55,271 nt of DNA, from positions 1 through 55,271 of the forward strand of contig CALVUL010000020.1 of NCBI GenBank assembly GCA_944363555.1, in the 5' to 3' direction. A program made the position numbers and the translations under genes. Source of the stretch: an uncultured Clostridia bacterium (GTDB taxonomy: Bacteria; Bacillota; Clostridia; Christensenellales; Borkfalkiaceae). Positions within the stretch are counted from its first letter, which is position 1. The number at the start of each line of letters is the position of its first letter. Below are positions 41,485-55,271 of the stretch, piece after piece. The notes beneath the pieces were generated by a model, which saw only the letters and a list, made by a program, of their open reading frames with translations, was not told the origin of the DNA and searched no databases.

Positions 41485-41541
41485 TTTTCACCCGAAACGC
41501 CCGCGCGGCTTCAAGCCGCTTTTTCTTCGGTAAAAAATCGC

Positions 41542-42979: not shown

Positions 42980-42985
42980 GCCTCT

Positions 42986-43014
42986 ATTATAGTATGGCGC
43001 GCCTTTTTTGTAAA
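42986..43014 (-). promoter_or_regulatory. Consensus SigA promoter positioned for a leaderless tsaE-tsaB-rimI mRNA
   Basis: Minus strand reads TTTACA (43014-43009), a 17-nt spacer, TATAAT (42991-42986), 6 nt, then ATG (42979). Confidence 0.55.
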
Positions 43015-43028
43015 GGGTTTCGGCGCAT

Positions 43029-43628: not shown

Positions 43629-43645
43629 GAAAAAACGCCTCCGAT

Positions 43646-43680
43646 AAAAAAATTTTCCGAAAATCCAAAATCTTCGGAAA
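43646..43680 (-). terminator. Intrinsic terminator forming the expression platform of the FMN riboswitch
   Basis: Minus strand reads TTTCCGAA-GATTTTGGATT-TTCGGAAA followed by ATTTTTTT. It lies between the aptamer and the ribU SD. Confidence 0.6.
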
Positions 43681-43715
43681 GCGATTTTATCCGCGGCGCG
43701 AAAAAGCGGACCATC

Positions 43716-43834
43716 GTTCTTTTCTCATCCGGACTATAACCGTCGGTCGGGGAATTGCGCCCCGTCGGCGCGCCGTAAAAGCGCGTTCATAGACTTTCAC
43801 TATCGGATAGGAATTTCACCTAACCCCAAAGAAC
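43716..43834 (-). promoter_or_regulatory. FMN riboswitch (RFN element) aptamer
   Basis: Minus strand reads GTTCTTTGGGGTTAGGTGAAATTCCTATCCGATAGTGAAAGTCTATGA...GGGGCGCAATTCCCCGACCGACGGTTATAGTCCGGATGAGAAAAGAAC. This matches the conserved RFN blocks (GGTGAAATTCC, CCGACnGT-ATAGTCnGGATG-AGAA), with P1 closed by GTTCTTT/AAAGAAC. Confidence 0.88.
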
Positions 43835-43854
43835 CTTGAATTTCAGTTTTCTTA

Positions 43855-43884
43855 ATGATATACCTTTTCCGCGGATTTGTAAAG
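43855..43884 (-). promoter_or_regulatory. Possible promoter for the FMN riboswitch-ribU unit
   Basis: Minus strand reads TTTACA (43884-43879), an 18-nt spacer, then TATCAT (43860-43855). Confidence 0.35.
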
Positions 43885-44019
43885 CGATTTCATCGCGGGC
43901 GCGCGGAAAATTTTATCCGGATTTTTACAAAATAGCCCTTTTTTCGCCGTCCTTTCCCATTTTCGCCCCCGCAAGGCGCGCTATGATGATCGGGATAAAC
44001 GTTTGAGGAGACGAACATC

Positions 44020-44316
44020 ATGCAAAATCAACTTCTTTCCACCTTTTTTTCGGGGCTTTTGTGTACGATCCTGCTTTTCGCGCTGGCTTTCGCCGCCGTG
44101 CTTTTCGTGCGGCTTTGCGTCTATTACATAAAGACCAACGCCCCCGCCGCGGCGAAAAAGGAGGAAAAACCCGAACAGCCCGCCGCCAAGGCGCAAAGCG
44201 AGCCCGCAGACGAAACGCCTGCCGCGCCCAAGCGGGCGCGCCCCAGAAGGCGGGTGCATACCATCGAGATCCGCCCCGACGAGATCAACCGCATCTACGT
44301 GGCGGAGCAAAAATAA
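44020..44316 (+). CDS. Small single-pass membrane protein, unknown function
   Basis: 98 aa. GAGGAG lies 9 nt upstream of the ATG. One N-terminal TM helix, a Pro/Ala/Glu/Lys-rich linker, and the tail RRRVHTIEIRPDEINRIYVAEQK. Confidence 0.5.
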   Translation: MQNQLLSTFFSGLLCTILLFALAFAAVLFVRLCVYYIKTNAPAAAKKEEKPEQPAAKAQSEPADETPAAPKRARPRRRVHTIEIRPDEINRIYVAEQK

Positions 44317-44432
44317 CCCGCCGGCGCAAAGCAAAACAGCGCGGAAAAACGCCTGTGCCCGCGCCCTTCGCGCGTTCCCGCCTTCTTCCCTTGCGGACGA
44401 CGCGCGACCGCGCCGCTTGCCCGAAAAAACCG

Positions 44433-44465
44433 CGCGCGCCGTTTCTTTAACGGCGCGCGTTTTTG
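44433..44465 (+). terminator. Rho-independent terminator (plus strand)
   Basis: CGCGCGCCGT-TTCTTTA-ACGGCGCGCG followed by T5. Confidence 0.6.
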
Positions 44466-44510
44466 TGTAAACGAAAACCACGCGACTATCGCGGGGTTTT
44501 CGTTTACACA
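44464..44510. repeat. Long near-perfect hairpin (16-bp outer stem plus 4-bp inner stem) without a U-tract
   Basis: TGTGTAAACGAAAACC (44464-44479) pairs with GGTTTTCGTTTACACA (44495-44510). The inner stem is CGCG/CGCG. Confidence 0.5.
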
Positions 44511-44511
44511 A

Positions 44512-44537
44512 TAAAAACCACGTGCTGTGCACGTGGA
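44512..44537 (-). terminator. Rho-independent terminator of rsfS
   Basis: CCACGTGC-TGT-GCACGTGG, followed by T5 on the minus strand. It lies 11 nt after the rsfS stop. Confidence 0.6.
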
Positions 44538-44547
44538 TGATTTTTCT

Positions 44548-44892
44548 TCAATCCATCTTTTCGGTGTTTTCGCCGTTGTCCCACAGCCGTTCGAGGTGGT
44601 AAAACAGGCGGCTTTCGTCGTTGAAAATATGCACGATGACGTCGCCGTAATCGAGCGCCGCCCAGCGCCCTTCCCGCACGCCCTCCCGCCGCAGGGGTGA
44701 ACTCCCCAGTTTGTCGAGTTCCTCCTCGAGGTTCTCGGCAAGGCTTCTGACGTGCGTGAGGCTGCGCCCCGTCGCAATGACGTAATAATCCGCCAGTATG
44801 GTCTTGTCCGCAACGTCGATCTTCAAAATATCCGTCGCTTTTTTGTCCGATAGGATCCGGCAAACCGCCAGAGCCAGTTCTTTGCTGTTCAA
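44548..44892 (-). CDS. rsfS: Ribosome silencing factor RsfS
   Basis: 114 aa with ILADYYVIATGRSLTHVRSLAENL. I use the TTG start at 44892, 7 nt after AAGGAG, which overlaps the nadD/yqeK stop (TTGA). The track's longer N-terminus runs antisense-like into the previous gene. Confidence 0.85.
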   Translation of the reverse strand: MNSKELALAVCRILSDKKATDILKIDVADKTILADYYVIATGRSLTHVRSLAENLEEELDKLGSSPLRREGVREGRWAALDYGDVIVHIFNDESRLFYHLERLWDNGENTEKMD

Positions 44893-46013
44893 ATTCTTTT
44901 CTCCTTTACATAATAGTCGTAACATTCTTCGGTGAGGCGGTAAGGCGTTTTCCCCGCCTCGAGAAGGTGGCGGCGCGTCGTTTCCACGCAGGCGGAAAAG
45001 CATGCGTCGAAATCGGCGTCGAACAGCCGCCTAAGCCGTTCCGCGCCGTCGAACGTGCGCCCCTCCTCCACCATGTCGGCAACGAACACCAGTTTTTCGA
45101 GGTCGCTCATGCCTGCCCTGCCCGTAGTGTGGTAACGCACGGCGTTGATTACGTCCCGATCCTTTACGCCGTATACGTGTTCGAGCATATACGCGCCGAG
45201 GAAGGCGTGCGCCACCGGCGCGGGCGCGTCCGCGGGGACGGCTGCGGGAAACTTCGCCTTGTCGGCGTATTTGGCGATGTCGTGGTACACGCAGGCGTCG
45301 AACACCTTGTCGCGGTCGAGCCCCAGCGATTTCGCCTTGTCGAGGGCGCACGCCGCCACGTTCGCCGTATGCGCAAAACGCTTTTCGCCGAGCACGGTGC
45401 GCACCAGCCGCACGGCGGGCGTGGGCGGATAAAGCCCGTTTCCGGCGATATACCGCGCGACGGCGGAAGGCACGTAAGGCGAAATATCCAGCCCGAACAT
45501 CGCATAAAGGCGGATCTTGGTGGAAGAAACCCGTTTGCCGCGGTAGGAAAGGCGGATGACGTCCGCGCCGAAACGCGTCTTTATCGCCCCGCATTCCCGA
45601 TCGAAATCGACGTACGCCCCCTCCCGTTCGAAAGCGGCAAGGTTCGCCGCCGCCAGAATGCGTTCGGGAAAGCGCCACGTCTTGAAATCTTCCAGCATGT
45701 CGCCGCCGACGAGGAAAACGAGTTGGCTTTCGGGATATACCGCTTTGAAATGTTCCAGCGTTTTATAGGTGTAACTCGTGCCGCCTTCGCGGATCTCGTA
45801 ATCGCAGACGTTTTCCCCCCCGAACGCCAGTTCGAGCATTTCGAGGCGCGCCGCGGCGGGGGCGCATTCGCTGTGCGTTTTATGCGGCGGGGAAAAGGTC
45901 GGCACCGCGACGACGCGGGAAAGGCAAAGTTCTTCTTTCACCCGTTCCGCCATCCGGATATGTTCGTTGTGCACGGGATCGAACGTCCCGCCGAATATAC
46001 CGATTTTCTCCAT
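44889..46013 (-). CDS. nadD: Fusion protein: nicotinate-nucleotide adenylyltransferase (NadD) plus an HD-domain YqeK-like phosphohydrolase
   Basis: The N-terminal 190 aa carry GIFGGTFDPVHNEH. The C-terminal 180 aa are an HD domain (FAHTANVA...CVYHDIAKY...RYHTTG). In Bacillus, yqeJ(nadD)-yqeK-yqeL(rsfS) are separate adjacent genes. Confidence 0.85.
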   Translation of the reverse strand: MEKIGIFGGTFDPVHNEHIRMAERVKEELCLSRVVAVPTFSPPHKTHSECAPAAARLEMLELAFGGENVCDYEIREGGTSYTYKTLEHFKAVYPESQLVFLVGGDMLEDFKTWRFPERILAAANLAAFEREGAYVDFDRECGAIKTRFGADVIRLSYRGKRVSSTKIRLYAMFGLDISPYVPSAVARYIAGNGLYPPTPAVRLVRTVLGEKRFAHTANVAACALDKAKSLGLDRDKVFDACVYHDIAKYADKAKFPAAVPADAPAPVAHAFLGAYMLEHVYGVKDRDVINAVRYHTTGRAGMSDLEKLVFVADMVEEGRTFDGAERLRRLFDADFDACFSACVETTRRHLLEAGKTPYRLTEECYDYYVKEKRI

Positions 46014-46019
46014 GATTTC

Positions 46020-46048
46020 ATTATAGCAAATCGCCGCCGTTTTTACAA
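46020..46048 (-). promoter_or_regulatory. Consensus SigA promoter positioned for a leaderless nadD/yqeK-rsfS mRNA
   Basis: Minus strand reads TTGTAA (46048-46043), a 17-nt spacer, TATAAT (46025-46020), 6 nt, then ATG (46013). No SD is present. Confidence 0.55.
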
Positions 46049-46118
46049 CTTGTTTTTTACGTTTATCTTCCGCAAAATCGGGGAAAGATCATAAAAAAAC
46101 GGAATCGAGGAGAAAAAA

Positions 46119-46916
46119 ATGAAAAGAATGTTGTTTTCCGTGTTTTTCGACGCGTTTTTCGCCGGATTCGCCGCCTTTTTGGTGCTGTTCGTCGTCTTTT
46201 CGGGCTTTGCGGAGACGACGCCCGCCGCGCTCTTCGCCGCCCTGCTCGCGGCGGGGACGGCTGCGCTGTGCTTTTACCGCCTGTACGGCAAGCGGGAAAA
46301 GACCGCCCTTTCTTTGCAGGAACGCAGGCGGACGGAAAATCTGCTTTTTTATCTGGGGCTCAGGCGGGAGGTGAACAAACTCTTCGCCGACGCCTTCGTA
46401 AAACTCGGCAAAACCGCCGCCGTGACCAAAAAAGGAGTGTATTTAAGGGAGGACGACGCCTATGTATACCCCTGCTTTTCCTTCGACGGCGTGAAAAAGG
46501 ACGATCTCGGCCGCGCGTACTTTCTGAGCGGCAGCAAAAAAGCGTACGTTTTCGCGCCGGAATTTTCCGCGGAACTATGCGCGTTCGCGCGGGCGTTCGG
46601 AGAAAAGATCGAACTCTGCGACGGGGCGGAAACCTACCGGCTCTTCAAAAACGCCGGCATGCTCCCCGCCGAAGCCCTCAAAGAAAACAAGCCGACCTTT
46701 GCGGAAAAGATGAAAAACCTGCTAAAACCCGTGTTCACCCGCCGCCGCGCGCCGAAATACTTCCTCTTCGGGCTGACGTTTTTGCTGTTTTCCTTTCTGG
46801 TGCCGTACAAACTGTATTACGTTCTGTTCGGATCCGTCCTGACGGTGTTTTCGGTGATCTGCCTGTTCTTCGCCGTTCCGCCCCAAAAGGGCGAAAGCCG
46901 GCTTTGCAAACGCTGA
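46119..46916 (+). CDS. Membrane protein of unknown function (2 N-terminal TM, a soluble middle domain, 2 C-terminal TM)
   Basis: 265 aa. GAGGAG lies 8 nt upstream of the ATG. No family recognised by eye. Confidence 0.55.
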   Translation: MKRMLFSVFFDAFFAGFAAFLVLFVVFSGFAETTPAALFAALLAAGTAALCFYRLYGKREKTALSLQERRRTENLLFYLGLRREVNKLFADAFVKLGKTAAVTKKGVYLREDDAYVYPCFSFDGVKKDDLGRAYFLSGSKKAYVFAPEFSAELCAFARAFGEKIELCDGAETYRLFKNAGMLPAEALKENKPTFAEKMKNLLKPVFTRRRAPKYFLFGLTFLLFSFLVPYKLYYVLFGSVLTVFSVICLFFAVPPQKGESRLCKR

Positions 46917-46940
46917 TTTTACGGCGCGCGCCGCACGCGT

Positions 46941-47792
46941 TCAGCCGCGCGGCGGTTTGAAGGCTTCGGGGGATCTTCCGAAATAGCGCTTGAAGGCGCG
47001 GCTGAAATTGCAGATCGAATTGTAGGAAAGCGCTTCCGCCGCCTCCGTTACGCTCTTTCCCTCCTGCAGCATTTCCTTTGCGTGTTCCATGCGCTTTTCC
47101 GCGAAATACCGCCTGAGGCTCATCCCCACCGAAGCGGAAAAGATTTTCGACAAATACGGATAGGAATACCCGCAGCGGGCGGAAAGTTCGGCAAGGGAAT
47201 TCAATTCGAGATAATGCCCGTCGATATAGTTTCTCGCCTCCAGCGCCGCCTGTTTCCCGTCGTTGATCTCCAGCGACTTCTCCTCCGCGCCGCCCCGCCG
47301 GAGTTCCACCACGATTTCCCCCAGAAGGCAATCGAGCAGATCGGCGCACACCTCCCCCCGCATAAACTCGGAAATGATCCTGCCCGCAAGCGCCGTAACG
47401 GTTCTGCTCTGCAGGATCTTCTCCTGCGCGTAGCGCGCGTTGATTTCCGGCAGATAGGCGCGGAACTTGGAATTTTCCCGAACGTCGAAAGCGAAATACC
47501 GGTAGCGGAAGGTGTTTTTCGCGGAGATGGCGTGCGTTTCCCCTTTCAAAGACACGTAAACGTCGTTCTTTTTCGCCTCCGTGCCCTCGCCGTCGGTAAA
47601 AAACGTCGCCGCGTTGTATGCCGCGATGCTCAGTTCCACGTCGAAATACTGTTCGTGCCCGCAGATCTGCAGCCCGTTGTAATAATATGCGTCCCCCACC
47701 TGATAAAGCAGAAAATTTTCCGTTTTCACGGGGTCGGAACGCACGTTTCCTTCCGTATAATAATTCTTTTCGAAGATGATCCTGCTCTCCAT
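46941..47792 (-). CDS. AraC-family transcriptional regulator
   Basis: 283 aa with a C-terminal double HTH (LNSLAELSARCGYSYPYLSKIFSA..., VTEAAEALSYNSICNFSRAFKRYFG). Confidence 0.8.
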   Translation of the reverse strand: MESRIIFEKNYYTEGNVRSDPVKTENFLLYQVGDAYYYNGLQICGHEQYFDVELSIAAYNAATFFTDGEGTEAKKNDVYVSLKGETHAISAKNTFRYRYFAFDVRENSKFRAYLPEINARYAQEKILQSRTVTALAGRIISEFMRGEVCADLLDCLLGEIVVELRRGGAEEKSLEINDGKQAALEARNYIDGHYLELNSLAELSARCGYSYPYLSKIFSASVGMSLRRYFAEKRMEHAKEMLQEGKSVTEAAEALSYNSICNFSRAFKRYFGRSPEAFKPPRG

Positions 47793-47798
47793 ACCCCC

Positions 47799-47827
47799 AT
47801 ACTAACGCGCCGCCGCGGATTTGTCAA
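47799..47827 (-). promoter_or_regulatory. SigA promoter positioned for a leaderless AraC-family mRNA
   Basis: Minus strand reads TTGACA (47827-47822), a 17-nt spacer, TAGTAT (47804-47799), 6 nt (GGGGGT), then ATG (47792). Confidence 0.5.
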
Positions 47828-47921
47828 TTGTTTTTTGATTAAAAAATGATAAATAACTGCGGATATTATGATATTTACTGCGCCGCGCCGGCGTGGTATG
47901 ATGGTATGCGGGAGGACAACC

Positions 47922-49100
47922 ATGGATAACGAAAAAATCATACGATCGGTAAAGAACTGTTTCAACTGGCTCGAAGATTATATGCTCACCTTCGGGCGGG
48001 GCGCGTGGGGCGTTTACGAACGCATCCGCACCGACATCAACATGCGCGTGGGCTATTCCCGCCCCGACACCGCCACGGAATTTCTGCGGGCGGCGCGGCT
48101 GTATAAAACAAAACTGCGCGACAGCCGGTATGACGACGTTTACGAAAACCTCGTAAAATGGCTCGCTTTCGCGCAGAATAAAACGGAAACGGAGGGCAAC
48201 GAAGCCTTTCCCTTCTACCTTGCGGACGGCTGCAAGGACTGGAAAGTGATGCAAATGCTTTTCCAGAACGACAACGGCAAGATCATGCTCAACCTCGCGC
48301 TTTTATACATGGAGACAAAGGACGAACGCCTGCTCGCCATGGCGGAAAAATGCGCGGCGTTCTGGCTTTCCGTTCAGCGGGAAAACGGCACGTTCTACGA
48401 CGCGTGCCTGAACATCGGCGAACCCGACAGCGCCGGCGCGTGTTTCGTGTTGTGGCCGATGGCGGCGATGTTCGCCCTCTTTAAGGCGACGGGAAAAGAA
48501 TCTTACCGCCGAAGCGGGGAAAAGGCGTTCGCCTATATGCAGACGCAGCAAAAAGACGGAAGGATCTTCACCTCTTACGAACGCACCAAAACGGAGGCGT
48601 GGCGGCCGGTTTCTTCCGAGCAGTACATCGCCCTTTTGTGTTACGCGATCTCTTTCAACCTGCTCGGCGACGAACGCTTTTTAACGGAAGCGCGCAAACT
48701 TCTTTTGTACAGCGAAACGCTGATCGACGCGGAAACGGGGGCGATCAAAAACTGCGTCGAACGGGATCAGGCGCTTTCGCTGAACGACGATCCTGCCCTG
48801 TGCGATCTTGTGTACACGCAGGGATTCGCCCTCAACGCCTTCGTCGAACTTTACCGCGCCGCGAAGGAGGAAAAATTCCTTGCCCGCGCGCAGAAACTGG
48901 CGGAATTTCTGGCGGATATTCAGTGCAAAGACGATCTGCCCTGCGTAAACGGCGGCTGGCGCGGCTCGTACAACCTGAAAACCGGACGGTACGACGGCAG
49001 GTGCAATCAGCTCAACGCGCTCGACGAGGGCGGCGAATACTCGGTATACGCCGGCTGGTGCGCCCTGCCCATCGCGTTCGGCATGCTGAAACTGCTGTAA
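47922..49100 (+). CDS. Cytoplasmic helical-repeat protein, probably an (alpha/alpha)6-toroid glycoside hydrolase/epimerase-like enzyme
   Basis: 393 aa. Start at ATG 47922 after GGGAGGA. Regularly spaced aromatic/Gly helix-hairpin pattern (ENGTFYD, KDGRIFTS, VNGGWRGSYN). Divergent from an AraC gene. Fold call is tentative. Confidence 0.5.
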   Translation: MDNEKIIRSVKNCFNWLEDYMLTFGRGAWGVYERIRTDINMRVGYSRPDTATEFLRAARLYKTKLRDSRYDDVYENLVKWLAFAQNKTETEGNEAFPFYLADGCKDWKVMQMLFQNDNGKIMLNLALLYMETKDERLLAMAEKCAAFWLSVQRENGTFYDACLNIGEPDSAGACFVLWPMAAMFALFKATGKESYRRSGEKAFAYMQTQQKDGRIFTSYERTKTEAWRPVSSEQYIALLCYAISFNLLGDERFLTEARKLLLYSETLIDAETGAIKNCVERDQALSLNDDPALCDLVYTQGFALNAFVELYRAAKEEKFLARAQKLAEFLADIQCKDDLPCVNGGWRGSYNLKTGRYDGRCNQLNALDEGGEYSVYAGWCALPIAFGMLKLL

Positions 49101-49175
49101 AATTTACGCGCCGAAAGGCAAAAGCGTTTGCCCGTCTTTTTCCTTTCCCGAAACGGCGTATGAACGATCCGAAAA

Positions 49176-49215
49176 CGCTGCGCCCGCGGTTTTTGAAAAC
49201 CGCGGGCGCTTTTGC
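49176..49215. terminator. Bidirectional terminator between convergent genes
   Basis: 14-bp stem GCGCCCGCGGTTTT/AAAACCGCGGGCGC (49180-49209) followed by TTTTGCCGTTTTTT. Confidence 0.65.
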
Positions 49216-49227
49216 CGTTTTTTCGTT

Positions 49228-50112
49228 TTACAACATTTTCAGAAACTCGGAAGCAAAATACACGTCGTGCAGCGCGATGCCGATGTTGTAACATAAAATG
49301 CGCTCTCGTTCGCTCCCGCGCCCCTCGCAGACGCCTTTGACGTACTCCGCCGTTTCCCTGCACCAGCGGAAACGATCGTAATAGCGGAAGTTTTTCACAT
49401 GCGCGTAATCGTCGACGAATATCCTGTCGAACGCGGCGTCGCAATTCATAAATCCGCGCGTATGGACGGGCACGACGAGGACGCCTTCGTTATAACACGA
49501 AAGCGGGGCGAAATCCTCTTCCCGATACGTAACGCCGCTGACGATCACATCCGCGGCGGAAAACAGACTTTCCGGCGCGTCGTATATTTTATACTCCACA
49601 TTCGGAAAGCGATATTTTTGCATAAACGTTTCGTGCGCGTCCTTATATTTCAGCAGCCCGACGGTCAGTTTTTTTTCCCGATAAATTTCCGCCAGCATGG
49701 AAAACGTTGCCGAAACGACGTTGCCGAGCCCCGCAAGCGCGAGGAAGGAAAAATCTTTCCGCGCGAACGACTTTACGGCATGCGCGGCAACCGCTCCGGT
49801 GCGCACCGTCGTGATATATTCCGCGTCGAACGCCGCGGCAAGTTCCCCGTCCGCAAGGCGGTACAGCAGCAGATCGCCGCCGATGCTCGGATTCCGTTCG
49901 GGATAACGGTTGACGATCTTTACCCCCGCCACGCCCTTATACGGCAAGATGCAGGGCATGACGTTGTAAAATACATGTTCTTCCATTTTCATGCTGATCT
50001 TTTCGGGAAGTACGGACTCCGCCTTATGCAAAAGCGCGTTTTCCACCCAGCACAGATATTTTTCCGCCGGCACCCGAAGCGCCGCGAGTTCCTCGTTTGT
50101 GATATGTTTCAT
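49228..50112 (-). CDS. Ornithine cyclodeaminase / mu-crystallin family NAD(P)-dependent enzyme
   Basis: 294 aa. Family motif YITTVRTGAVAAHA and Rossmann loop LALAGLGNVV. Overlaps the upstream gene's stop by 4 nt. Confidence 0.72.
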   Translation of the reverse strand: MKHITNEELAALRVPAEKYLCWVENALLHKAESVLPEKISMKMEEHVFYNVMPCILPYKGVAGVKIVNRYPERNPSIGGDLLLYRLADGELAAAFDAEYITTVRTGAVAAHAVKSFARKDFSFLALAGLGNVVSATFSMLAEIYREKKLTVGLLKYKDAHETFMQKYRFPNVEYKIYDAPESLFSAADVIVSGVTYREEDFAPLSCYNEGVLVVPVHTRGFMNCDAAFDRIFVDDYAHVKNFRYYDRFRWCRETAEYVKGVCEGRGSERERILCYNIGIALHDVYFASEFLKML

Positions 50113-51914
50113 GAAAGAACGTCCTTCATCGCCGCAAGGAAGATATCGTTGTCTTTTTCGTCCCGAATCGCCACGCGGATAAAATTTTTGCCGATAAAAT
50201 AATTTTTCGAAGAAAGATCCTTGATCAGAATATTATGTTTATTGAGCATTTTTACGCAGAATTTATGAGAATCGACCTCGTTTAGATCGATCATCACGAA
50301 ATTCGCCTGCGACGGATAGACCTTCACGCCGAGCGTTTCCAGCGCCGCCGTGAACCGGCGGCGTTCCGCCGCCACGCGTTCGCAGGCGCGCGCATAGGAT
50401 TTGGCATACAGATTGAATATCTGCAAAAAATACTCCGCAAAACTGTTGATGTTCCAGATCTGCATCTCGCGGCGCACCGCCGCGATCAACGCGTCGTTTC
50501 CGGAAGCGAGCACGCCGAGGCGCAGCCCCGGCACGCCGTAGGATTTACTGATGCTTCTGATCACCGTGAGGTTCTTGTAGCGATCGAGGATCTCGTCGTC
50601 AAACAGCGTATATTTTTTGTCCGCGTCGGCAAAATCGATAAACGATTCATCCACGACGAGTTGCGTACCGCAACTTTCGCAACGATCCGCCAGCGCTAAA
50701 ATTTCTTTCTTGCTCAAAAGGCAGCCGCTCGGATTATCCGGCGAAACCACGCACAGCCAATCGGCGGTTTCCGCGGCGGCATAAAGGGCGTTCAGATCGA
50801 ATTGATAGTCCCTTCCGGAATTATCCACGGGGACGATCTCCGCATGGCGGAAACAACGCACGTATTCGTTGAAGGTGGGCAGGCTGACCGCAAACTTTCC
50901 GCGGCACACCGCACCCAACGCGTTGATCAGTTCCGCCGCGCCGTTGCCGACAAGGATCCGCGAATGCTCGACGCCGAACACGCTTTCCGCGTTCATGTTC
51001 TGCACGTCCAGTCCGGAAGGATAAGCCGTCAGCAGAGAAGCGAATTCCGCATTGAGTTTTTCCGTGAATTTTTTCGGCGGAAAGTACGGATTTACGAGAT
51101 AGCAAAAATCCAGCAATTTCGGATAGCGCCAATAACCGCCGAATTTCGAGATCAGCAGATCGTAACTGTCCTTTTTGGAAAAAAGCACGTTGGCGATGTC
51201 GAGATCGGCGGCGTTATCGATCTCGTACCACGGCAGATCCCCCACAAAATACGCTTTCAGTTCGCTTAAAGAAAGGTGCGCCACCACCTTGAGCACCGCT
51301 TCGTAATAACAGTTTTTGCCGTACGCCTGCATATAGGCTCTCAAAAAGGGAAGATACACGCTCTGGGAAAACTTTTTGGACAGTTTGTATACGTTTACCG
51401 TTTTATAATACTGCGAAAGCATCGCGTAGTTCATATCCGTTTTTTCGATGAACTGCGTGATCTTTCCGCTCTCGTCGCAGGTAACCACCGTGCCGTCCAT
51501 CCACGATTCGTACTTCGCCACCACGGCAAGATTTTCGTCCGGACATTCGCACACGCGCCGTATCAGCGATTTATCGAAGATCAGATCGGATTCCAGCAGC
51601 ACGGTATCGTCTTTGACGAGTTCGTCCCGCGCGAGATAAAAACTGTAAATATTGTTGGTGGTTGCGTATTCCCGATTATAAAGAAAGACAAATTCCACGG
51701 GCGCGCCGGCATACTTTTCCTCGATATAACGCATCAGATTTTCCGCTTTATATCCAACCACGAGCACGCACTTGTTTATTTTTGCCTCGATGATCGCTTC
51801 CACCGCGTAATCGATAAGCCTTTTTCCGGCGACTTTCACCATACACTTGGTGTTGTCGTCCGTATATTTCCCCAGCCGTTTTCCCATGCCGGCAGCCAAC
51901 ATTAACGCTTGCAT
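50109..51914 (-). CDS. Bifunctional protein: LicC-like nucleotidyl (cytidylyl) transferase fused to a CobD/HisC-like class I/II PLP enzyme
   Basis: Residues 1-245 carry LAAGMGKRLG, TTNNIYSFYLARDEL and WYEIDNAADLD (the LicC pattern). Residues 250-601 carry VNPYFPP, SPDNPSG and the PLP-Lys motif SISKSYGVPGLRLG. Confidence 0.75.
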   Translation of the reverse strand: MQALMLAAGMGKRLGKYTDDNTKCMVKVAGKRLIDYAVEAIIEAKINKCVLVVGYKAENLMRYIEEKYAGAPVEFVFLYNREYATTNNIYSFYLARDELVKDDTVLLESDLIFDKSLIRRVCECPDENLAVVAKYESWMDGTVVTCDESGKITQFIEKTDMNYAMLSQYYKTVNVYKLSKKFSQSVYLPFLRAYMQAYGKNCYYEAVLKVVAHLSLSELKAYFVGDLPWYEIDNAADLDIANVLFSKKDSYDLLISKFGGYWRYPKLLDFCYLVNPYFPPKKFTEKLNAEFASLLTAYPSGLDVQNMNAESVFGVEHSRILVGNGAAELINALGAVCRGKFAVSLPTFNEYVRCFRHAEIVPVDNSGRDYQFDLNALYAAAETADWLCVVSPDNPSGCLLSKKEILALADRCESCGTQLVVDESFIDFADADKKYTLFDDEILDRYKNLTVIRSISKSYGVPGLRLGVLASGNDALIAAVRREMQIWNINSFAEYFLQIFNLYAKSYARACERVAAERRRFTAALETLGVKVYPSQANFVMIDLNEVDSHKFCVKMLNKHNILIKDLSSKNYFIGKNFIRVAIRDEKDNDIFLAAMKDVLS

Positions 51915-51941
51915 CCCGCACTCCTTCCTTTGTATGCGCCC

Positions 51942-53087
51942 TTAAAATTTTCTCCACACCATCTTGTTGACGACGCCGGTGTAACTTTGGATCAGTTTCA
52001 CCACTTTGTTCGACACGTCCTCCGTATAAACCGGTACGTTTTCGCAAAGATCGCCGTTTTTCAGCATGGAAACCGCAAGGTCCACCGCCTGCAGCACCTG
52101 CTCTGCGGAGATCCCCGCCAGCACGAACGCGCCCTTGTCGAGCGCTTCCGGCCGCTCGGTGCTCGTACGGATGCAGACCGCGGCGATGTCTTTCCCGATC
52201 GAATGGTAAAACGCGCTCTCTTCGGGCAGCGTGCCGCTGTCGGACACGCAGCAGAACGCGTTCATCTGCAAATTGTTGTAATCGCTGAACCCGAAGGGTT
52301 TCAGGCTGCGCACCAACGGATGGAACTTAAAACGCCGCTTTTCGATGAACTTCGCGCTGCGCGGATGGGTGGAATACACGATGGGCATCCCGTAAGTTTC
52401 CGCCATGGCGTTGACCGCGTTCATCAAAGAGAAGAAATTTTCTTCCGTATCGATATTCTCCTCCCTGTGCGCGGAAAGGAGAAAATACTTTTTCTTTTCC
52501 AGACCGAGGGCGGCAAGCACCCCGCTCTTTTCGATCTTTTTCAGATTCGCCCGCAGCACTTCCGCCATCGGCGAGCCGGTAACGAACGTGCGTTCCTTCG
52601 CCGTGCCTTCCGCATTGAGATAGCGGCGGGCGTGTTCGGAATAACAAAGGTTCACGTCCGCAATGTGATCGACGATGCGGCGGTTGGTTTCCTCCGGCAG
52701 ACACTCGTCGAAACAGCGGTTGCCCGCCTCCATGTGAAAGATGGGGATATGCAGCCGCTTGGCGGAGATCGCCGAAAGGCAGGAATTGGTATCGCCCAGC
52801 ACCAGCACGGCGTCGGGCTTTTTTTCCGCCATCAGCGCGTAGGATTTCGCCAGCACGTTGCCCATCGTTTCGCCGAGGTCCTTCCCCACCACGCCGAGAT
52901 AATGATCGGGGGCGCGCAGTTCGAGATCTTCGAAAAACACCTGATTGAGTTCGTAATCGTAATTCTGCCCCGTATGCACCAGCGTCTGCTCGAAATATCG
53001 ATCGCACTTCTTGATGACCTCGGAAAGCCGGATGATCTCCGGCCGCGTGCCCACGATGGTCATCAGTTTGAGTTTATTCATTTTCAT
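51942..53087 (-). CDS. fnlC: UDP-N-acetylglucosamine 2-epimerase family (FnlC/CapG-type)
   Basis: 381 aa with N-terminal MTIVGTRPEIIRLS and a WecB/CapG-like sequence. Third gene of the CapE-CapF-CapG triad. Confidence 0.85.
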   Translation of the reverse strand: MKMNKLKLMTIVGTRPEIIRLSEVIKKCDRYFEQTLVHTGQNYDYELNQVFFEDLELRAPDHYLGVVGKDLGETMGNVLAKSYALMAEKKPDAVLVLGDTNSCLSAISAKRLHIPIFHMEAGNRCFDECLPEETNRRIVDHIADVNLCYSEHARRYLNAEGTAKERTFVTGSPMAEVLRANLKKIEKSGVLAALGLEKKKYFLLSAHREENIDTEENFFSLMNAVNAMAETYGMPIVYSTHPRSAKFIEKRRFKFHPLVRSLKPFGFSDYNNLQMNAFCCVSDSGTLPEESAFYHSIGKDIAAVCIRTSTERPEALDKGAFVLAGISAEQVLQAVDLAVSMLKNGDLCENVPVYTEDVSNKVVKLIQSYTGVVNKMVWRKF

Positions 53088-54231
53088 TCACCTTCAAAGC
53101 GTACGTGTCGGGGCGGGCGGGGTCGAAACATTCGTTGCTCCACATGAAGGTAACGAGATCGACGTCGCCGAGGTTTTCGATGTTGTGGGTGTATCCGGTG
53201 GGGATATCCACCACTTCCGGCTTGTCGCCGGAAACGTAATACTCCGTGATCTTATCGGAAAAGATATTGCGGAAACGCACCACGCCCTTGCCGCTCACCA
53301 CCAGAAATTTTTCGTTTTTGGTATGATGCCAGTGTTCGCCCTTCCTGACCCCGGGCTTTGTTACGTTGACGGAGAACTGCCCCGCGCCCTTCGTGCGCAA
53401 AATCTCGGTAAAACTGCCGCGCTCGTCCGCATGCACGGCAAGGGGGTAGGCAAATTCGCCTTCCGGAATATAACTCGTGTAGGTCGCGTGCAGTTTTTTC
53501 ACGAAGGGATCGGAAAGATCGGGCACCAGCCCCGTTTCCCGCGAGGCTTTGAAGGACATGATCAGATCGGCGATCTTCCCCAGCGTTACGCGGTATTCCT
53601 TATGCACGAACACATAGCCGCTCTCCTCCTCGCCGTCCGCGGCGATGAGTTCGATGATCGCCCGAACGATGTCGTCGATATACACGAGGGTGAGTTCGGT
53701 GTTTCTGTCGTTCACGCGGATATCCAGCCCCCGCGCGACATTGTTGCAGAACGTAGCCACCACACTGTTGTAATTAGGGCGGCACCACTTGCCGAACAGG
53801 TTGGGAAAACGGTACACGTACACCTTTACGCCCTGTTCCTCCCCGTATTGAAAGAGCCGCTCCTCCCCCGCCTTTTTGCTTTTGCCGTAGTCGTTGTCGA
53901 GTTCCGCCTGAATGGAAGAACTCATCGCCACGGGCGCTTTGTTGTTGTGCTTGGCGAGCAGATCCAGCAACTCGTCCGTAAACCCGAAATTGCCCTTCAT
54001 GAACTCCGCGGGATCCTGCGGGCGGTTGATGCCGGCGAGATGCACCACGAAATCGCATTCGCGGCAGTATGTATCGAGCAGCGATTTGTCGCTGTCCACA
54101 TCGTATAAAAACAATTCGAGATCGGGCGAAAGGGAAAAACTTTTGTCCTTGCCCTCCTTCACCGCGTTTAAAGTTGCCGTAAGATTTTTTCCGACGAATC
54201 CGTTCGCCCCCGTGATCAGTATCTTCTTCAT
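53074..54231 (-). CDS. fnlB: CapF/FnlB-type reductase (SDR domain plus C-terminal cupin)
   Basis: 385 aa with ILITGANGFVGKNL, and a C-terminal cupin-like segment (GEHWHHTKNEKFLVVSG). Confidence 0.8.
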   Translation of the reverse strand: MKKILITGANGFVGKNLTATLNAVKEGKDKSFSLSPDLELFLYDVDSDKSLLDTYCRECDFVVHLAGINRPQDPAEFMKGNFGFTDELLDLLAKHNNKAPVAMSSSIQAELDNDYGKSKKAGEERLFQYGEEQGVKVYVYRFPNLFGKWCRPNYNSVVATFCNNVARGLDIRVNDRNTELTLVYIDDIVRAIIELIAADGEEESGYVFVHKEYRVTLGKIADLIMSFKASRETGLVPDLSDPFVKKLHATYTSYIPEGEFAYPLAVHADERGSFTEILRTKGAGQFSVNVTKPGVRKGEHWHHTKNEKFLVVSGKGVVRFRNIFSDKITEYYVSGDKPEVVDIPTGYTHNIENLGDVDLVTFMWSNECFDPARPDTYALKVNENE

Positions 54232-55271
54232 AACGTCCCCTTTTTGCCGAGCGCTTCTTTGATATAATCGAGTTTCAGCAGTTTTTCCTTGACTTCTTCC
54301 ACCGTGAGTTGTTCGGTGTTGCTCGAATTGAATTCCGAAAGCGTGTTGCGTTCGGGATTGCCCTGTTTGAAATATTTATCGTAGTTGAGCCCGCGTTTGT
54401 CGCAGGGCACGCGGTAGAAATCGCCCATGTCGACGGCGTGCGCGCATTCCTCGTTGGTCAAAAGCGTTTCGTACATCTTTTCGCCGTGGCGGATGCCGAT
54501 GACTTTGACGGAATTCTTATCCCCGCCGAAAAGTTCGCACACCGCCTCTACCTGCGTTTGAATGGTGCACGCGGGCGCCTTCTGCACCAAAATATCGCCC
54601 GATACGCCGTGTTCGAAGGCGAAAAGCACCAGATCGACCGCCTCTTCCAAAGACATGATGAACCGCGTCATTTCCGGCTCGGTAACGGTGATGGGCTCGT
54701 GCGCGCGGATCTGTTCGATCCACAGCGGAATGACCGACCCGCGGGAACACATCACGTTGCCGTAACGGGTGCAGCAGATCTTGGTTTTCGCGGGATCCAC
54801 CGTGCGGGATTTCGCCACGATGACCTTTTCCATCATCGCCTTGCTCGTGCCCATGGCGTTTACGGGATAAGCCGCTTTATCGGTGGAAAGGCAGATGACC
54901 GTTTTCACGCCGGCGTTGATCGCGGCGGTGAGCACGTTATCGGTGCCGAGCACGTTGGTCTTTACCGCTTCGAGCGGGAAAAATTCGCAGGAAGGGACCT
55001 GTTTCAACGCGGCGGCGTGGAAGACGTAATCGACGCCGATCATCGCCGACGATACGGAATCGAGGCTGCGCACGTCCCCGATATAAAATTTAAGTTTTTC
55101 CGCGAAATCGGGGTGTTTCGCCTGAAACTCGTGGCGCATATCGTCCTGCTTTTTCTCGTCGCGCGAGAAAATGCGGATCTCCCCGATGTCCGTGGACATG
55201 AACCTTTTGAGAACGGCATTGCCGAAACTGCCCGTCCCCCCCGTGATCAACAGTGTTTTTCCTTTGAACAT
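54228..55271 (-). CDS. fnlA: UDP-GlcNAc 4,6-dehydratase/5-epimerase (CapE/FnlA-type)
   Basis: 347 aa. MFKGKTLLITGGTGSFGNAVLKRF...IRIFSRDEKKQDDMRHEF is typical of FnlA/CapE. The ATG is the last codon of the window, so the upstream region is not visible. Confidence 0.88.
   Translation of the reverse strand: MFKGKTLLITGGTGSFGNAVLKRFMSTDIGEIRIFSRDEKKQDDMRHEFQAKHPDFAEKLKFYIGDVRSLDSVSSAMIGVDYVFHAAALKQVPSCEFFPLEAVKTNVLGTDNVLTAAINAGVKTVICLSTDKAAYPVNAMGTSKAMMEKVIVAKSRTVDPAKTKICCTRYGNVMCSRGSVIPLWIEQIRAHEPITVTEPEMTRFIMSLEEAVDLVLFAFEHGVSGDILVQKAPACTIQTQVEAVCELFGGDKNSVKVIGIRHGEKMYETLLTNEECAHAVDMGDFYRVPCDKRGLNYDKYFKQGNPERNTLSEFNSSNTEQLTVEEVKEKLLKLDYIKEALGKKGTL

What the first reader, a model, noticed from the sequence alone, without database searches (positions are those of the whole stretch)
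49228..51914. LicC-like cytidylyltransferase fused to a CobD/HisC-like PLP enzyme, followed by an OCD/mu-crystallin enzyme, at the tail of an L-FucNAc operon
The 601-aa protein joins a LicC-type nucleotidyltransferase (LAAGMGKRLG, NNIYSFYLARDEL, WYEIDNAADLD) to a class I/II PLP domain. That domain's motifs (NPYFPP, SPDNPSG, SISKSYGVPGLRLG) look more like CobD-type phospho-amino-acid decarboxylases or HisC than like sugar aminotransferases.

Established knowledge:
- LicC activates phosphocholine, and related enzymes activate phosphonates, as CMP/CDP derivatives.
- CobD-like enzymes decarboxylate O-phospho-Thr or O-phospho-Ser to aminopropanol-phosphate or ethanolamine-phosphate, including in capsule pathways.

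Inference: the fusion could make and CDP-activate a small amino-alcohol phosphate head group in one polypeptide, for decoration of the FucNAc-containing polymer.

The 4-nt-overlapping OCD-family gene (YITTVRTGAVAA) is unusual in polysaccharide loci. It could supply or modify the amino-acid precursor, by analogy with SbnB-type or opine-type chemistry. I know of no characterised system with this three-part arrangement.
Basis: partly seen in the sequence, partly recalled or inferred. Interest (0 to 1): 0.65.

Follow-up and report, generated by a model that had tools for sequence, protein, structure and literature searches.

The report
Fused enzyme making a polysaccharide phospho-head-group
The last two genes of a cell-surface polysaccharide operon probably make a CTP-activated amino-alcohol phosphate decoration and tailor it with an imine-reducing enzyme; the module is uncharacterised but occurs in hundreds of anaerobe species and in an archaeon.

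Summary
Window 51914..50109 (minus strand) encodes a 601-aa fusion of a LicC/PntC-type nucleotidyltransferase and a class I/II PLP domain. That domain is closer to phospho-amino-acid decarboxylases (CobD, Ser-P decarboxylase) than to HisC. An intact OCD/mu-crystallin gene (50112..49228) overlaps it by 4 nt, and a hairpin then ends an FnlA/B/C-like operon.

A contig 99.5% identical to the window shows a LicD phosphotransferase, Wzx and a glycosyltransferase just beyond the window edge, and no kinase.

The fusion is not rare. At least 584 species genomes encode it (Bacillota, Bacteroidota, Treponema, Methanosarcina). Its neighbours are enzymes that use CDP-alcohols: LicD, TagF-like, or CDP-alcohol phosphatidyltransferase.

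In 34 of 86 loci the adjacent gene (nearly always the next one downstream) is either this OCD-like enzyme or an opine-dehydrogenase-family enzyme. The two swap between near-identical loci, and two Bacteroidota carry all three domains in one protein.

Most likely the fusion makes a CDP-amino alcohol, probably CDP-ethanolamine from phosphoserine. The dehydrogenase probably adds an opine-type N-carboxyalkyl group. Both products are inferred, not shown.

No curated family or paper I could reach describes the module. It is a new variant of the LicC/LicD-type head-group pathways.

The parts
54228..55271 (-). FnlA-like UDP-GlcNAc 4,6-dehydratase/5-epimerase. It is the first operon gene visible, and its start codon is at the window edge.
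   Evidence: TIGR04130 FnlA scores 521.6 bits, the best hit but below the 730 cut-off. Polysacc_synt_2 scores 1.2e-103.
53074..54231 (-). FnlB/WbcJ-like UDP-2-acetamido-2,6-dideoxy-hexul-4-ose reductase
   Evidence: NF047837 scores 411 bits (cut-off 500). The protein has Epimerase and Polysacc_synt_C domains.
51942..53087 (-). FnlC-like non-hydrolysing UDP-HexNAc 2-epimerase
   Evidence: TIGR00236 scores 224 bits, above the 210 cut-off. Epimerase_2 scores 3.4e-80.
50109..51914 (-). Gene for the 601-aa bifunctional protein (nucleotidyltransferase plus PLP domain)
   Evidence: The protein is full-length and conserved at 45-84% identity in relatives from bacteria and Methanosarcina.
51165..51914 (-). 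LicC/PntC-type cytidylyltransferase domain (aa 1-250)
   Evidence: It matches LicC 1jyk at 1.4e-15 and Tde1415 PntC 6pd1 at 4e-9 over residues 2-241. GxGKRL and WYEID motifs are present. Glu108 aligns with the amine-binding Glu104 of Tde-PntC.
50112..51152 (-). CobD/Ser-P-decarboxylase-like PLP domain (aa 255-601). The Schiff-base Lys457 is encoded at 50546..50544.
   Evidence: CobD HMM 187.9 bits against HisC 150.8 bits. 6oux scores 4.7e-40. Identity is 33% to the Sulfurospirillum Ser-P decarboxylase, 27% to Listeria CobD and 23% to E. coli HisC. K457, N394, D422 and R465 are invariant.
49228..50112 (-). OCD/mu-crystallin-family NAD(P) enzyme (294 aa), translationally coupled to the fusion gene
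   Evidence: PF02423 scores 55 bits. The AlphaFold2 model has pLDDT 91.5 and TM 0.84-0.88 to Pyr2C reductase, archaeal AlaDH, iminosuccinate reductase, CRYM and SbnB. The carboxylate-binding K65 and R104 and the GLG Rossmann motif are invariant.
49180..49209 (-). Terminator-like hairpin ending the operon (GCGCCCGCGG, 10-nt loop, CCGCGGGCGC)
   Evidence: Read directly from the sequence. The consensus scan did not list it, because its T-run is weak.

Best explanation
The two genes are the head-group arm of a Wzx/Wzy-type surface polysaccharide locus that also makes an L-FucNAc-type sugar.

Step 1 (inferred from homology): the PLP domain decarboxylates a phospho-amino acid already present in the cell. 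The most likely reaction is O-phospho-L-serine to ethanolamine phosphate.

Step 2 (inferred from homology and context): the LicC/PntC-like domain joins this product to CTP, giving a CDP-amino alcohol.

Step 3 (context shown, chemistry inferred): the LicD protein encoded upstream in the same operon transfers the phospho-amino alcohol onto the glycan.

Step 4 (the least certain): the OCD-like enzyme is interchangeable with an opine-dehydrogenase-family enzyme. It uses NAD(P)H to condense the free amine with a 2-oxo acid, giving an opine-type N-(1-carboxyalkyl)amino-alcohol phosphate. The fusion's active sites do not differ between loci with and without the dehydrogenase, so this step probably acts on the CDP-activated or already transferred head group rather than between steps 1 and 2.

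My confidence is about 0.7 for steps 1-3 as a class (a CDP-amino-alcohol phosphate head group), about 0.5 for ethanolamine specifically, and about 0.35 for step 4. The overall figure of 0.45 is for the statement as a whole.
For: Domain homology:
- Glu108 of the nucleotidyltransferase domain aligns with Glu104 of Tde-PntC, which contacts the primary amine of AEP. LicC has Asp there for the bulkier choline.

Context in the window's own species:
- Contig L095 is 99.5% identical to the window over 16 kb. It reads GT4, LicD, a 381-aa protein, Wzx, FnlA, FnlB, FnlC, fusion, OCD, with no kinase.

Context in relatives:
- At least 584 species genomes encode the fusion.
- In 86 loci its neighbours are LicD, TagF-like or sulfatase-type transferases, and in one locus (L066) a CDP-alcohol phosphatidyltransferase.

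The dehydrogenase belongs to the same pathway:
- 34 of 86 loci carry an OCD-like or Octopine_DH-like gene, nearly always directly 3' of the fusion.
- L063 and L069 fuse the nucleotidyltransferase, PLP and Octopine_DH domains in one protein of about 946 aa; Pfam was run on L063.

The two dehydrogenase types are equivalent:
- The window and L001 are 83% and 76% identical on the two flanks, and L008 and L004 are 96.6-97% identical. In both pairs only the dehydrogenase gene differs, OCD against Octopine_DH.
- The two partner types are interleaved on the fusion tree.

Shared chemistry of the two dehydrogenase families:
- The Octopine_DH-like partner keeps the His212/Arg324/Asp329 catalytic triad of Pecten octopine dehydrogenase.
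- The OCD-like partner keeps the carboxylate-binding Lys and Arg. Every structural neighbour acts on a C-N bond at the alpha carbon of a carboxylic acid.
- Each partner family has extra invariant basic residues that its nearest solved relative lacks: R69 and R271 in the OCD-like family; R124, R190 and K262 in the Octopine_DH-like family. This hints at an anionic, phosphate-bearing substrate.
Against: - No enzyme activity or glycan structure is known for any member.
- CobD-like and HisC-like enzymes share a fold and phosphate-binding residues, so decarboxylase against aminotransferase cannot be settled from sequence. All NCBIfam scores are below the curated cut-offs.
- About 60% of the loci have no dehydrogenase nearby, so it is not obligatory.
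- No position separates the fusions that have a dehydrogenase from those that lack one, and 120 positions are at least 97% invariant. This argues against an N-substituted substrate for the nucleotidyltransferase domain. It leaves open that the dehydrogenase acts upstream of the PLP step.
- No opine-dehydrogenase-family enzyme is known to me to use a phospho-amine.
- I could not compare the module with the pneumococcal Gtp1-3 proteins.
Confidence: 0.45

Rival explanations
1. The dehydrogenase acts upstream as a supply enzyme. The OCD-like or Octopine_DH-like protein reductively aminates a phospho-2-oxo acid, for example 3-phosphohydroxypyruvate plus ammonia, to give the phospho-amino acid that the PLP domain then decarboxylates. 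In other lineages the substrate would come from other sources, such as SerC or the choline-kinase-like or HAD proteins seen next to some fusions. The final head group would be plain phosphoethanolamine.
For: - The fusion's active-site residues are the same with or without a dehydrogenase.
- The accessory neighbours vary: choline-kinase-like (L021, L024), HAD (L005), DUF1015 (L088, L093).
- The OCD family includes the ammonia-using archaeal alanine dehydrogenase, which is a top structural neighbour.
Against: - Known Octopine_DH-family enzymes condense amines with oxo acids rather than using ammonia (my own knowledge). The partner keeps the opine-dehydrogenase catalytic triad.
- Phosphoserine is a common metabolite, so a dedicated and tightly coupled supply enzyme seems unnecessary.
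- The three-domain fusion is neutral on the order of steps.
Confidence: 0.17
2. The PLP domain is an aminotransferase of the Cj1437 or HisC type. It converts a keto-phosphate such as DHAP into an amino-alcohol phosphate such as serinol phosphate, which is then CDP-activated. The dehydrogenase either tailors the amine or regenerates the amino donor.
For: - The fold and the PLP and phosphate-binding residues are shared with HisC. The HisC HMM still scores 150.8 bits.
- Both reaction types occur in this clade. From my own recollection, Campylobacter jejuni Cj1436 is a decarboxylase and Cj1437 a DHAP aminotransferase; I did not check this here.
- A split relative sits beside PEP mutase without a phosphonopyruvate decarboxylase on a Bradyrhizobium plasmid. 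There a transaminase role is conceivable.
Against: - All the closest characterised relatives are decarboxylases: 6oux at 141 bits and CobD at 110 bits, against 42-68 bits for HisC structures. Identity is 33% to the Ser-P decarboxylase and 23% to E. coli HisC.
- The Treponema loci next to Ppm/Ppd already carry a separate Tde1415-type AEP transaminase (shown by Pfam for L083), so the fusion is not needed for that step.
Confidence: 0.15
3. The module is a fused version of the pneumococcal CDP-2-glycerol pathway (Gtp1 reductase, Gtp2 cytidylyltransferase, Gtp3, WchX). The head group would be glycerol 2-phosphate or another polyol phosphate, with the dehydrogenase acting as a carbonyl reductase.
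For: - The pneumococcal gene order is wchX, gtp1, gtp2, gtp3, and WchX is the glycerol phosphotransferase. From my own recollection WchX is a LicD-type enzyme and the pathway comprises a reductase, a cytidylyltransferase and a third enzyme; I could not check either point. This mirrors LicD, fusion and dehydrogenase here.
- Glycerol 2-phosphate also occurs in E. coli O33.
Against: - I could not obtain the Gtp sequences or the primary paper, so homology is untested.
- A PLP enzyme has no obvious role in making a polyol phosphate.
- Both dehydrogenase families here act on C-N bonds, not C-O bonds.
Confidence: 0.07
4. The genes are ordinary enzymes: a histidinol-phosphate or sugar aminotransferase fused to a sugar-1-phosphate nucleotidyltransferase, plus an unrelated proline or ornithine metabolism gene.
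For: The generic Pfam families match. Weak NCBIfam hits go to archaeal GlmU and AglF over the shared N-terminal Rossmann core.
Against: - LicC is the best structural match for the N-terminal half, and the LicC/PntC-specific C-terminal WYEID region is present.
- No his-operon or cobalamin genes are nearby.
- The pair is conserved as a unit, with translational coupling, across phyla. It always lies in glycan loci with CDP-alcohol transferases.
- OCD and Octopine_DH genes swap as a cassette at the same position.
Confidence: 0.02

Closest known systems
LicC/LicD phosphocholine decoration pathway (Streptococcus pneumoniae, Haemophilus)
   Same: A LicC-type cytidylyltransferase makes a CDP-amino alcohol and a LicD-family enzyme transfers the phospho-head group to a surface glycan. 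Sequence similarity is clear: 1jyk at 1.4e-15, and LicD in the operon.
   Different: - No LicA kinase or LicB importer is present.
- The substrate is apparently made de novo by a fused PLP domain.
- The amine-pocket residue is Glu108, as in PntC, not Asp as in LicC.
- A dehydrogenase partner is added.
Tde1415 (PntC-AEPT) of Treponema denticola, phosphonate tailoring (Rice et al. 2019, PMC6697681; PDB 6pd1)
   Same: It has the same logic and domain order. A LicC-like cytidylyltransferase is fused to the PLP enzyme that makes its amine substrate, giving an activated aminoethyl head group for the cell surface.
   Different: - The PLP domain there is a class V aminotransferase that makes a phosphonate (AEP) from phosphonoacetaldehyde. 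Here it is a class I/II, CobD-like domain.
- The window locus has no PEP mutase or phosphonopyruvate decarboxylase.
- In L083 both fusion types occur side by side.
CobD L-threonine-O-3-phosphate decarboxylase and SMUL_1544-type L-serine-O-phosphate decarboxylase (cobamide linker synthesis)
   Same: These are the closest characterised relatives of the PLP domain (6oux 4.7e-40; TIGR01140 is the best NCBIfam hit; 33% identity to the annotated Sulfurospirillum enzyme). All PLP-binding residues are conserved.
   Different: - The score is below the CobD equivalog cut-off.
- The domain is fused to a cytidylyltransferase.
- It lies in a polysaccharide locus, not next to cbiB/cobU.
- It has a family-specific N-terminal GGYWRY...DFCYLVNPYFPP segment.
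Opine dehydrogenases (octopine dehydrogenase, CntM-type) and OCD-family imine enzymes such as SbnB, which works with a phosphoserine-using PLP enzyme
   Same: These are NAD(P)-dependent enzymes that form or cleave a secondary amine at the alpha carbon of a carboxylic acid. The catalytic or carboxylate-binding residues are conserved in both partner types.
   Different: - The partners are only 14-23% identical to any solved OCD-family member.
- The proposed amine substrate carries a phosphate or CDP group.
- They sit in glycan loci, not in siderophore, metallophore or amino-acid pathways.
Pneumococcal CDP-2-glycerol genes gtp1-gtp3 with wchX (serotypes 15 and 23)
   Same: A phosphotransferase gene (wchX), which I recall to be LicD-family, is followed by gtp1-3 at the 3' part of a cps locus. 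I recall gtp1 as a reductase and gtp2 as a cytidylyltransferase.
   Different: Homology is untested because the sequences and the primary paper were not available. The reported product is a polyol phosphate, for which a PLP domain has no evident role.

Membership tests
LicC/PntC-type phospho-base cytidylyltransferase | N-terminal GxGxRL nucleotide-binding signature, with sequence similarity to LicC and PntC across the domain, including the C-terminal W/Y-x-E-I-D region | tested here: met
   AAGMGKRLG and WYEIDNAADLD are present. 1jyk scores 1.4e-15 (residues 2-119) and 6pd1 scores 4e-9 (residues 2-241).
LicC/PntC-type phospho-base cytidylyltransferase | An acidic residue contacts the substrate amine (Glu104 in Tde-PntC, Asp in LicC) | tested here: met
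   Glu108 aligns with Tde-PntC Glu104 and is at least 97% invariant in 84 fusions.
LicC/PntC-type phospho-base cytidylyltransferase | A partner transferase that uses the CDP/CMP-activated product is encoded in the same locus | tested here: met
   LicD lies in the 99.5%-identical contig L095. Relatives have LicD, TagF-like or CDP-OH_P_transf neighbours.
LicC/PntC-type phospho-base cytidylyltransferase | CTP-dependent activation of a phospho- or phosphono-amine | not testable with these tools
   This needs an enzyme assay.
CobD (threonine-phosphate decarboxylase, TIGR01140) | Score at or above the curated equivalog cut-off | tested here: not met
   187.9 bits against a cut-off of 290.55. It is the best family but below threshold.
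CobD (threonine-phosphate decarboxylase, TIGR01140) | Fold-type I PLP residues: Schiff-base Lys, Asp to the pyridine N, Asn, and a phosphate-binding Arg | tested here: met
   K457, D422, N394 and R465 are invariant.
CobD (threonine-phosphate decarboxylase, TIGR01140) | Cobamide-biosynthesis gene context (cbiB, cobU and others) | tested here: not met
   The context is a polysaccharide locus. Compare the Sulfurospirillum enzyme, which lies between cbiB and cobU.
CobD (threonine-phosphate decarboxylase, TIGR01140) | Decarboxylation rather than transamination of a phospho-amino acid | not testable with these tools
   The only indication is the relative similarity: decarboxylases at 110-141 bits against HisC structures at 42-68 bits.
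HisC histidinol-phosphate aminotransferase (TIGR01141) | Score above the cut-off and his-operon context | tested here: not met
   150.8 bits against 276.55. Identity to E. coli HisC is 23%. There are no his genes nearby.
OCD/mu-crystallin family (PF02423) | Pfam gathering score and the complete two-domain fold | tested here: met
   55.2 bits against 24. The AlphaFold2 model has pLDDT 91.5 and TM 0.84-0.88 to 6t3e, 1omo, 6rqa, 4bv8 and 4mpd.
OCD/mu-crystallin family (PF02423) | Conserved Lys and Arg that hold the substrate alpha-carboxylate, plus a GxG Rossmann motif | tested here: met
   K65, R104 (in TTVRTGA) and G128-L-G130 are invariant in the partner family. Their role is inferred by alignment only.
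OCD/mu-crystallin family (PF02423) | Assignment to a characterised subfamily (OCD, AlaDH, Pyr2C reductase, SbnB, BhcD and others) | tested here: not met
   All NCBIfam equivalogs fall far below their cut-offs. The best is 66 bits against 417.
Tde1415-type phosphonate tailoring (Ppm, Ppd, PntC-AEPT) | Class V AEP transaminase domain, with PEP mutase and phosphonopyruvate decarboxylase in the locus | tested here: not met
   The PLP domain is class I/II. No Ppm or Ppd is present in the window or in L095.
FnlA/FnlB/FnlC UDP-L-FucNAc pathway | Three consecutive genes that match the FnlA, reductase and 2-epimerase models | tested here: inconclusive
   The order and best hits fit. However, FnlA (521.6 against 730) and the reductase (411 against 500) are below their cut-offs, and only the epimerase passes. 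The sugar could be L-FucNAc or a related 6-deoxy-L-HexNAc.
Pneumococcal Gtp1-3/WchX CDP-2-glycerol pathway | Homology of the three proteins to Gtp1, Gtp2 and Gtp3 | not tested
   The sequences and the primary paper could not be obtained.

The most novel reading that the evidence does not exclude
A widespread, undescribed pathway gives surface glycans of gut and rumen anaerobes (Christensenellales, Lachnospiraceae, Alistipes, Muribaculaceae and others) and of Methanosarcina an opine-type head group: N-(1-carboxyalkyl)aminoethyl phosphate. The head group would be built from phosphoserine by a decarboxylase-cytidylyltransferase fusion and then tailored by either of two unrelated imine reductases. 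The OCD/Octopine_DH cassette swaps between near-identical strains could then be a means of antigenic variation, through a different oxo acid or a different stereochemistry.
Probability: 0.3. Interest if true: 0.8.

Novelty: new variant of a known kind. Interest (0 to 1): 0.6.

Why it matters
Phospho-linked head groups such as phosphocholine, phosphoethanolamine and aminoethylphosphonate shape how hosts and phages recognise microbial surfaces.

If the reading is right, the fusion is a de novo bacterial and archaeal route to a CDP-amino alcohol. It would need no imported base and no kinase. It occurs in at least 584 species genomes, yet databases label it only as 'aminotransferase class I/II'.

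The dehydrogenase partner points to a new zwitterionic or anionic decoration on commensal glycans. Support comes from its translational coupling to the fusion, from the repeated exchange of OCD-like and opine-dehydrogenase-like genes, and from their fusion into one protein in two Bacteroidota.

The hypothesis can be tested directly with three purified proteins and with cultured carriers.

Tried and rejected
Searches that led nowhere:
- An exact-sequence lookup of the fusion found no contig. The 99%-identical OCD protein P0121 gave the conspecific contig instead.
- All ten literature searches found no paper on this fusion or on an OCD or opine-dehydrogenase gene in a LicD context.
- The pneumococcal Gtp papers were not held. 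Bentley 2006 has no supplement on file.
- The Proteus O-antigen genetics paper says nothing about genes for the O14 carboxyethylaminoethyl phosphate.
- Source names for homologues of the Octopine_DH-like partner were only generic.

Explanations rejected:
- Phosphonate (AEP) pathway. Four of 86 loci have Ppm and/or Ppd nearby; where checked these carry their own PntC-type enzyme (L083 a Tde1415-type PntC-AEPT, L028 a PntC-Ppm fusion). The window locus has neither Ppm nor Ppd.
- Sugar-1-phosphate nucleotidyltransferase or HisC.
- OCD gene as a truncated pseudogene. The short C-terminus is shared by its subclade and the model is confident.

Analysis with a negative result:
- A search for specificity-determining positions between fusions with and without a dehydrogenase found none. 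This weakens the simplest order of steps (decarboxylase, then dehydrogenase, then cytidylyltransferase).

Full report
**What is in the window.** On the minus strand the window ends with five tightly packed genes:
- 55271..54228, FnlA-like;
- 54231..53074, FnlB/WbcJ-like;
- 53087..51942, FnlC-like 2-epimerase;
- 51914..50109, a 601-aa protein;
- 50112..49228, a 294-aa protein.

The last two overlap by ATGA. A ribosome-binding site precedes the 601-aa gene. A perfect 10-bp GC-rich hairpin (49209..49180) follows the last stop codon.

Pfam assigns NTP_transferase plus Aminotran_1_2 to the long protein and OCD_Mu_crystall to the short one.

**The two halves of the fusion.** The N-terminal 250 residues match pneumococcal LicC best (1jyk, 1.4e-15). 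They match the PntC domain of Treponema denticola Tde1415 over the whole domain (6pd1, residues 2-241), including the C-terminal WYEID region.

Glu108 aligns with Tde-PntC Glu104. Rice et al. describe this residue as contacting the primary amine of aminoethylphosphonate, while LicC has the smaller Asp for choline. This points to a small primary-amine phospho-substrate, not a sugar-1-phosphate.

The C-terminal half scores highest with the CobD model (187.9 bits) and lower with HisC (150.8 bits). Both are below the curated cut-offs. Among solved structures the order is:
- the Ser-P decarboxylase-like 6oux, 141 bits;
- 3ftb, 119 bits;
- Salmonella CobD, 110 bits;
- true HisC enzymes, 42-68 bits.

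In a direct alignment the domain is 33% identical to the annotated Sulfurospirillum serine-O-phosphate decarboxylase, 27% to Listeria CobD and 23% to E. coli HisC. The PLP lysine (K457), D422, N394 and R465 are conserved. The reaction type, decarboxylation or transamination, remains an inference.

**What lies beyond the window edge.** The OCD protein has a 99%-identical copy, P0121, on a 42-kb contig. That contig, L095, is 99.5% identical to window 55271..39231 over 16 kb. It continues upstream as GT4, LicD (273 aa), a 381-aa protein with no Pfam hit (perhaps Wzy), and Wzx, followed by FnlA/B/C, the fusion and OCD.

No LicA- or PduX-like kinase is present. The substrate of the PLP domain must therefore already exist in the cell as a phosphate ester.

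**How common the fusion is.**
- The protein search saturated at 8000 hits. More than 120 full-length relatives share at least 56% identity.
- A scan of one genome per species found at least 584 genomes with a full-length relative. They span Bacillota, Bacteroidota, Spirochaetota (Treponema), Campylobacterales, a gammaproteobacterium and Methanosarcina.
- Across 84 fusions, 120 positions are at least 97% invariant, including a family-specific linker, GGYWRY...DFCYLVNPYFPP.
- Databases name these proteins only 'aminotransferase class I/II-fold PLP-dependent enzyme'. No NCBIfam equivalog covers them.

**Neighbourhoods.** I catalogued 86 loci by ORF calling, BLAST and Pfam.
- Within 2.5 kb of the fusion, 22 loci carry a TagF-like glycerophosphotransferase and 18 carry LicD.
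- The Treponema clade has a 900-aa membrane protein with a sulfatase (EptA/LtaS-type) domain.
- One gammaproteobacterial locus has a CDP-alcohol phosphatidyltransferase directly downstream.
- One Lachnospiraceae locus places the fusion right after a 1669-aa flagellin gene.

LicD, TagF-like and CDP-alcohol phosphatidyltransferase enzymes use CDP-alcohol donors; the sulfatase-type transferases move phospho-alcohol head groups. This fits the idea that the fusion's product is a CDP-activated alcohol phosphate.

Four loci carry PEP mutase and/or phosphonopyruvate decarboxylase genes within 10 kb. Pfam showed a separate Tde1415-type PntC-AEPT in L083 and a PntC-Ppm fusion in L028. The fusion is therefore not needed for aminoethylphosphonate.

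**The dehydrogenase partner.** In 34 of the 86 loci an adjacent gene, nearly always the one immediately 3' of the fusion, is either an OCD-like protein like the window's or a member of the Octopine_DH (opine dehydrogenase) family. Four results tie the dehydrogenase to the pathway and show that the two types are interchangeable:
- The OCD-like family is large (1462 hits). In every context examined it follows a fusion gene: Clostridia MAGs, Anaerotaenia torta and Methanosarcina sp. WWM596.
- The closest relative of the window locus, L001, is 83% identical up to the last codons of the fusion gene and 76% identical again from the next conserved gene. Between these it has an Octopine_DH gene (plus a recombinase island) where the window has OCD.
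- L008 and L004 are 96.6-97% identical on both flanks and differ only in this gene.
- On a tree of the fusions the two partner types are interleaved in both dehydrogenase-associated clades. L063 and L069 (Bacteroidota MAGs) encode a fusion ORF of about 946 aa, which Pfam on L063 shows to combine the nucleotidyltransferase, PLP and Octopine_DH domains.

**What the dehydrogenase may do.** The Octopine_DH-like partner retains the His212/Arg324/Asp329 triad of Pecten octopine dehydrogenase.

The window's OCD-like protein models confidently (pLDDT 91.5) as a complete OCD/mu-crystallin fold. Its neighbours, at TM 0.84-0.88, are pyrroline-2-carboxylate reductase, archaeal alanine dehydrogenase, iminosuccinate reductase, mu-crystallin, SbnB and CmnK. 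It keeps the Lys and Arg that hold the alpha-carboxylate in these enzymes.

What the two unrelated families have in common is NAD(P)-dependent formation or cleavage of a secondary amine next to a carboxylate, which is opine-type chemistry. Both partner families also carry invariant basic residues that their nearest solved relatives lack: R69 and R271 in one, and R124, R190 and K262 in the other. This hints at an anionic substrate.

My preferred reading is that the enzyme condenses the head-group amine with a 2-oxo acid. From my own recollection, a comparable substituent, 2-[(R)-1-carboxyethylamino]ethyl phosphate, is known in the Proteus mirabilis O14 antigen. I could not find its genes.

**A complication.** No alignment position distinguishes the fusions that have a dehydrogenase from those that lack one. 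The fusion therefore appears to do the same reaction everywhere. This argues against the dehydrogenase acting between the PLP step and the cytidylyltransferase step. It acts either later, on the CDP-amino alcohol or the transferred head group, or earlier, supplying the phospho-amino acid. The earlier role would resemble the choline-kinase-like, HAD or DUF1015 neighbours seen in other loci. I rank tailoring first and supply second. Only assays can decide.

**Comparison with known systems.**
- The module works like the LicC/LicD phosphocholine pathway.
- It most resembles Tde1415, where a LicC-like domain is fused to the PLP enzyme that makes its substrate.
- It differs in having a CobD-like class I/II PLP domain, in lacking a kinase and PEP mutase, and in having the dehydrogenase partner.
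- It fails the equivalog tests for CobD and HisC and is not in a cobamide or histidine context.
- The pneumococcal gtp1-3/wchX genes for CDP-2-glycerol have a similar layout, but I could not test homology.

**Verdict.** This is a widespread, uncharacterised variant of CDP-alcohol head-group decoration pathways. The core function is reasonably well supported. The role of the dehydrogenase is open and testable.

Noticed in passing
window 43713-43837 (-), upstream of ORF 43628..43029: An FMN riboswitch (RF00050, 94.7 bits) precedes an ECF-transporter S component, presumably a riboflavin transporter.
   Followed up: partly
window 44889-46013 (-): A 374-aa ORF combines a cytidylyltransferase-like domain (NadD-type) and an HD domain (YqeK-type) in one protein, followed by RsfS. 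The Pfam calls come from the identical gene in L095.
   Followed up: no
L001 13098-16822: In the closest relative, a serine-recombinase island (Resolvase/Recombinase plus three small genes) sits directly after the Octopine_DH gene. This is exactly where the window and L001 stop being alignable, and it may be the vehicle or a scar of the cassette exchange.
   Followed up: partly
L063 10001-12841 and L069 10001-12838: ORFs of about 946 aa in Muribaculaceae and Bacteroidales MAGs extend the fusion by about 340 aa. Pfam on L063 shows all three domains in one protein: nucleotidyltransferase, PLP and Octopine_DH.
   Followed up: yes
L083 10001-16613 (also L045, L055): In rumen Treponema the class I/II fusion sits directly before Ppm and Ppd. 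In L083 a Tde1415-type NTP_transf+Aminotran_5 fusion follows, so two different cytidylyltransferase-PLP fusions lie in one locus.
   Followed up: partly
L088 11820-12869; L093 and L094 3944-5170: A DUF1015 (PF06245) protein recurs next to the fusion, in Fusobacterium vincentii and in a Bacillota metagenome contig. It has no solved relative and its role is unknown.
   Followed up: partly
L030 4944-11833: In a Lachnospiraceae MAG the fusion gene directly follows a 1669-aa flagellin gene and precedes UDP-galactopyranose mutase. This suggests a phospho-linked flagellin glycan modification.
   Followed up: no
L089 5753-9737 (Bradyrhizobium sp. 187 plasmid p187_1): This is a split version of the module: PEP mutase (aepX), a LicC-like gene, a CDP-alcohol phosphatidyltransferase, and a stand-alone PLP protein carrying the family-specific GGYWKY...DFVLLVNPYFPP motif. 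No phosphonopyruvate decarboxylase is nearby. It may be a phosphonolipid pathway that uses this PLP family.
   Followed up: partly
L090 (Rahnella sikkimica plasmid), L091 (Bacillus cereus plasmid); also Priestia, Erwinia and Gloeothece hits: More distant fusions (about 32% identity) lie in clusters that look like natural-product pathways. Their neighbours include a CDP-alcohol phosphatidyltransferase, HAD phosphatases, ATP-grasp enzymes, an acyl carrier protein and an aminoacyl-tRNA-ligase-like protein.
   Followed up: no
L088 source record NZ_CP084075.1: A 2.1-Mb 'plasmid' record of Fusobacterium vincentii SB055 is evidently a chromosome, and the collection holds almost no annotation for it.
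   Followed up: no
L092 7001-8125: An Octopine_DH-family protein 38% identical to the L001 partner is very common in Acutalibacteraceae. There it sits next to amylase genes, not a fusion gene. Only a subclade of this family belongs to the module.
   Followed up: no
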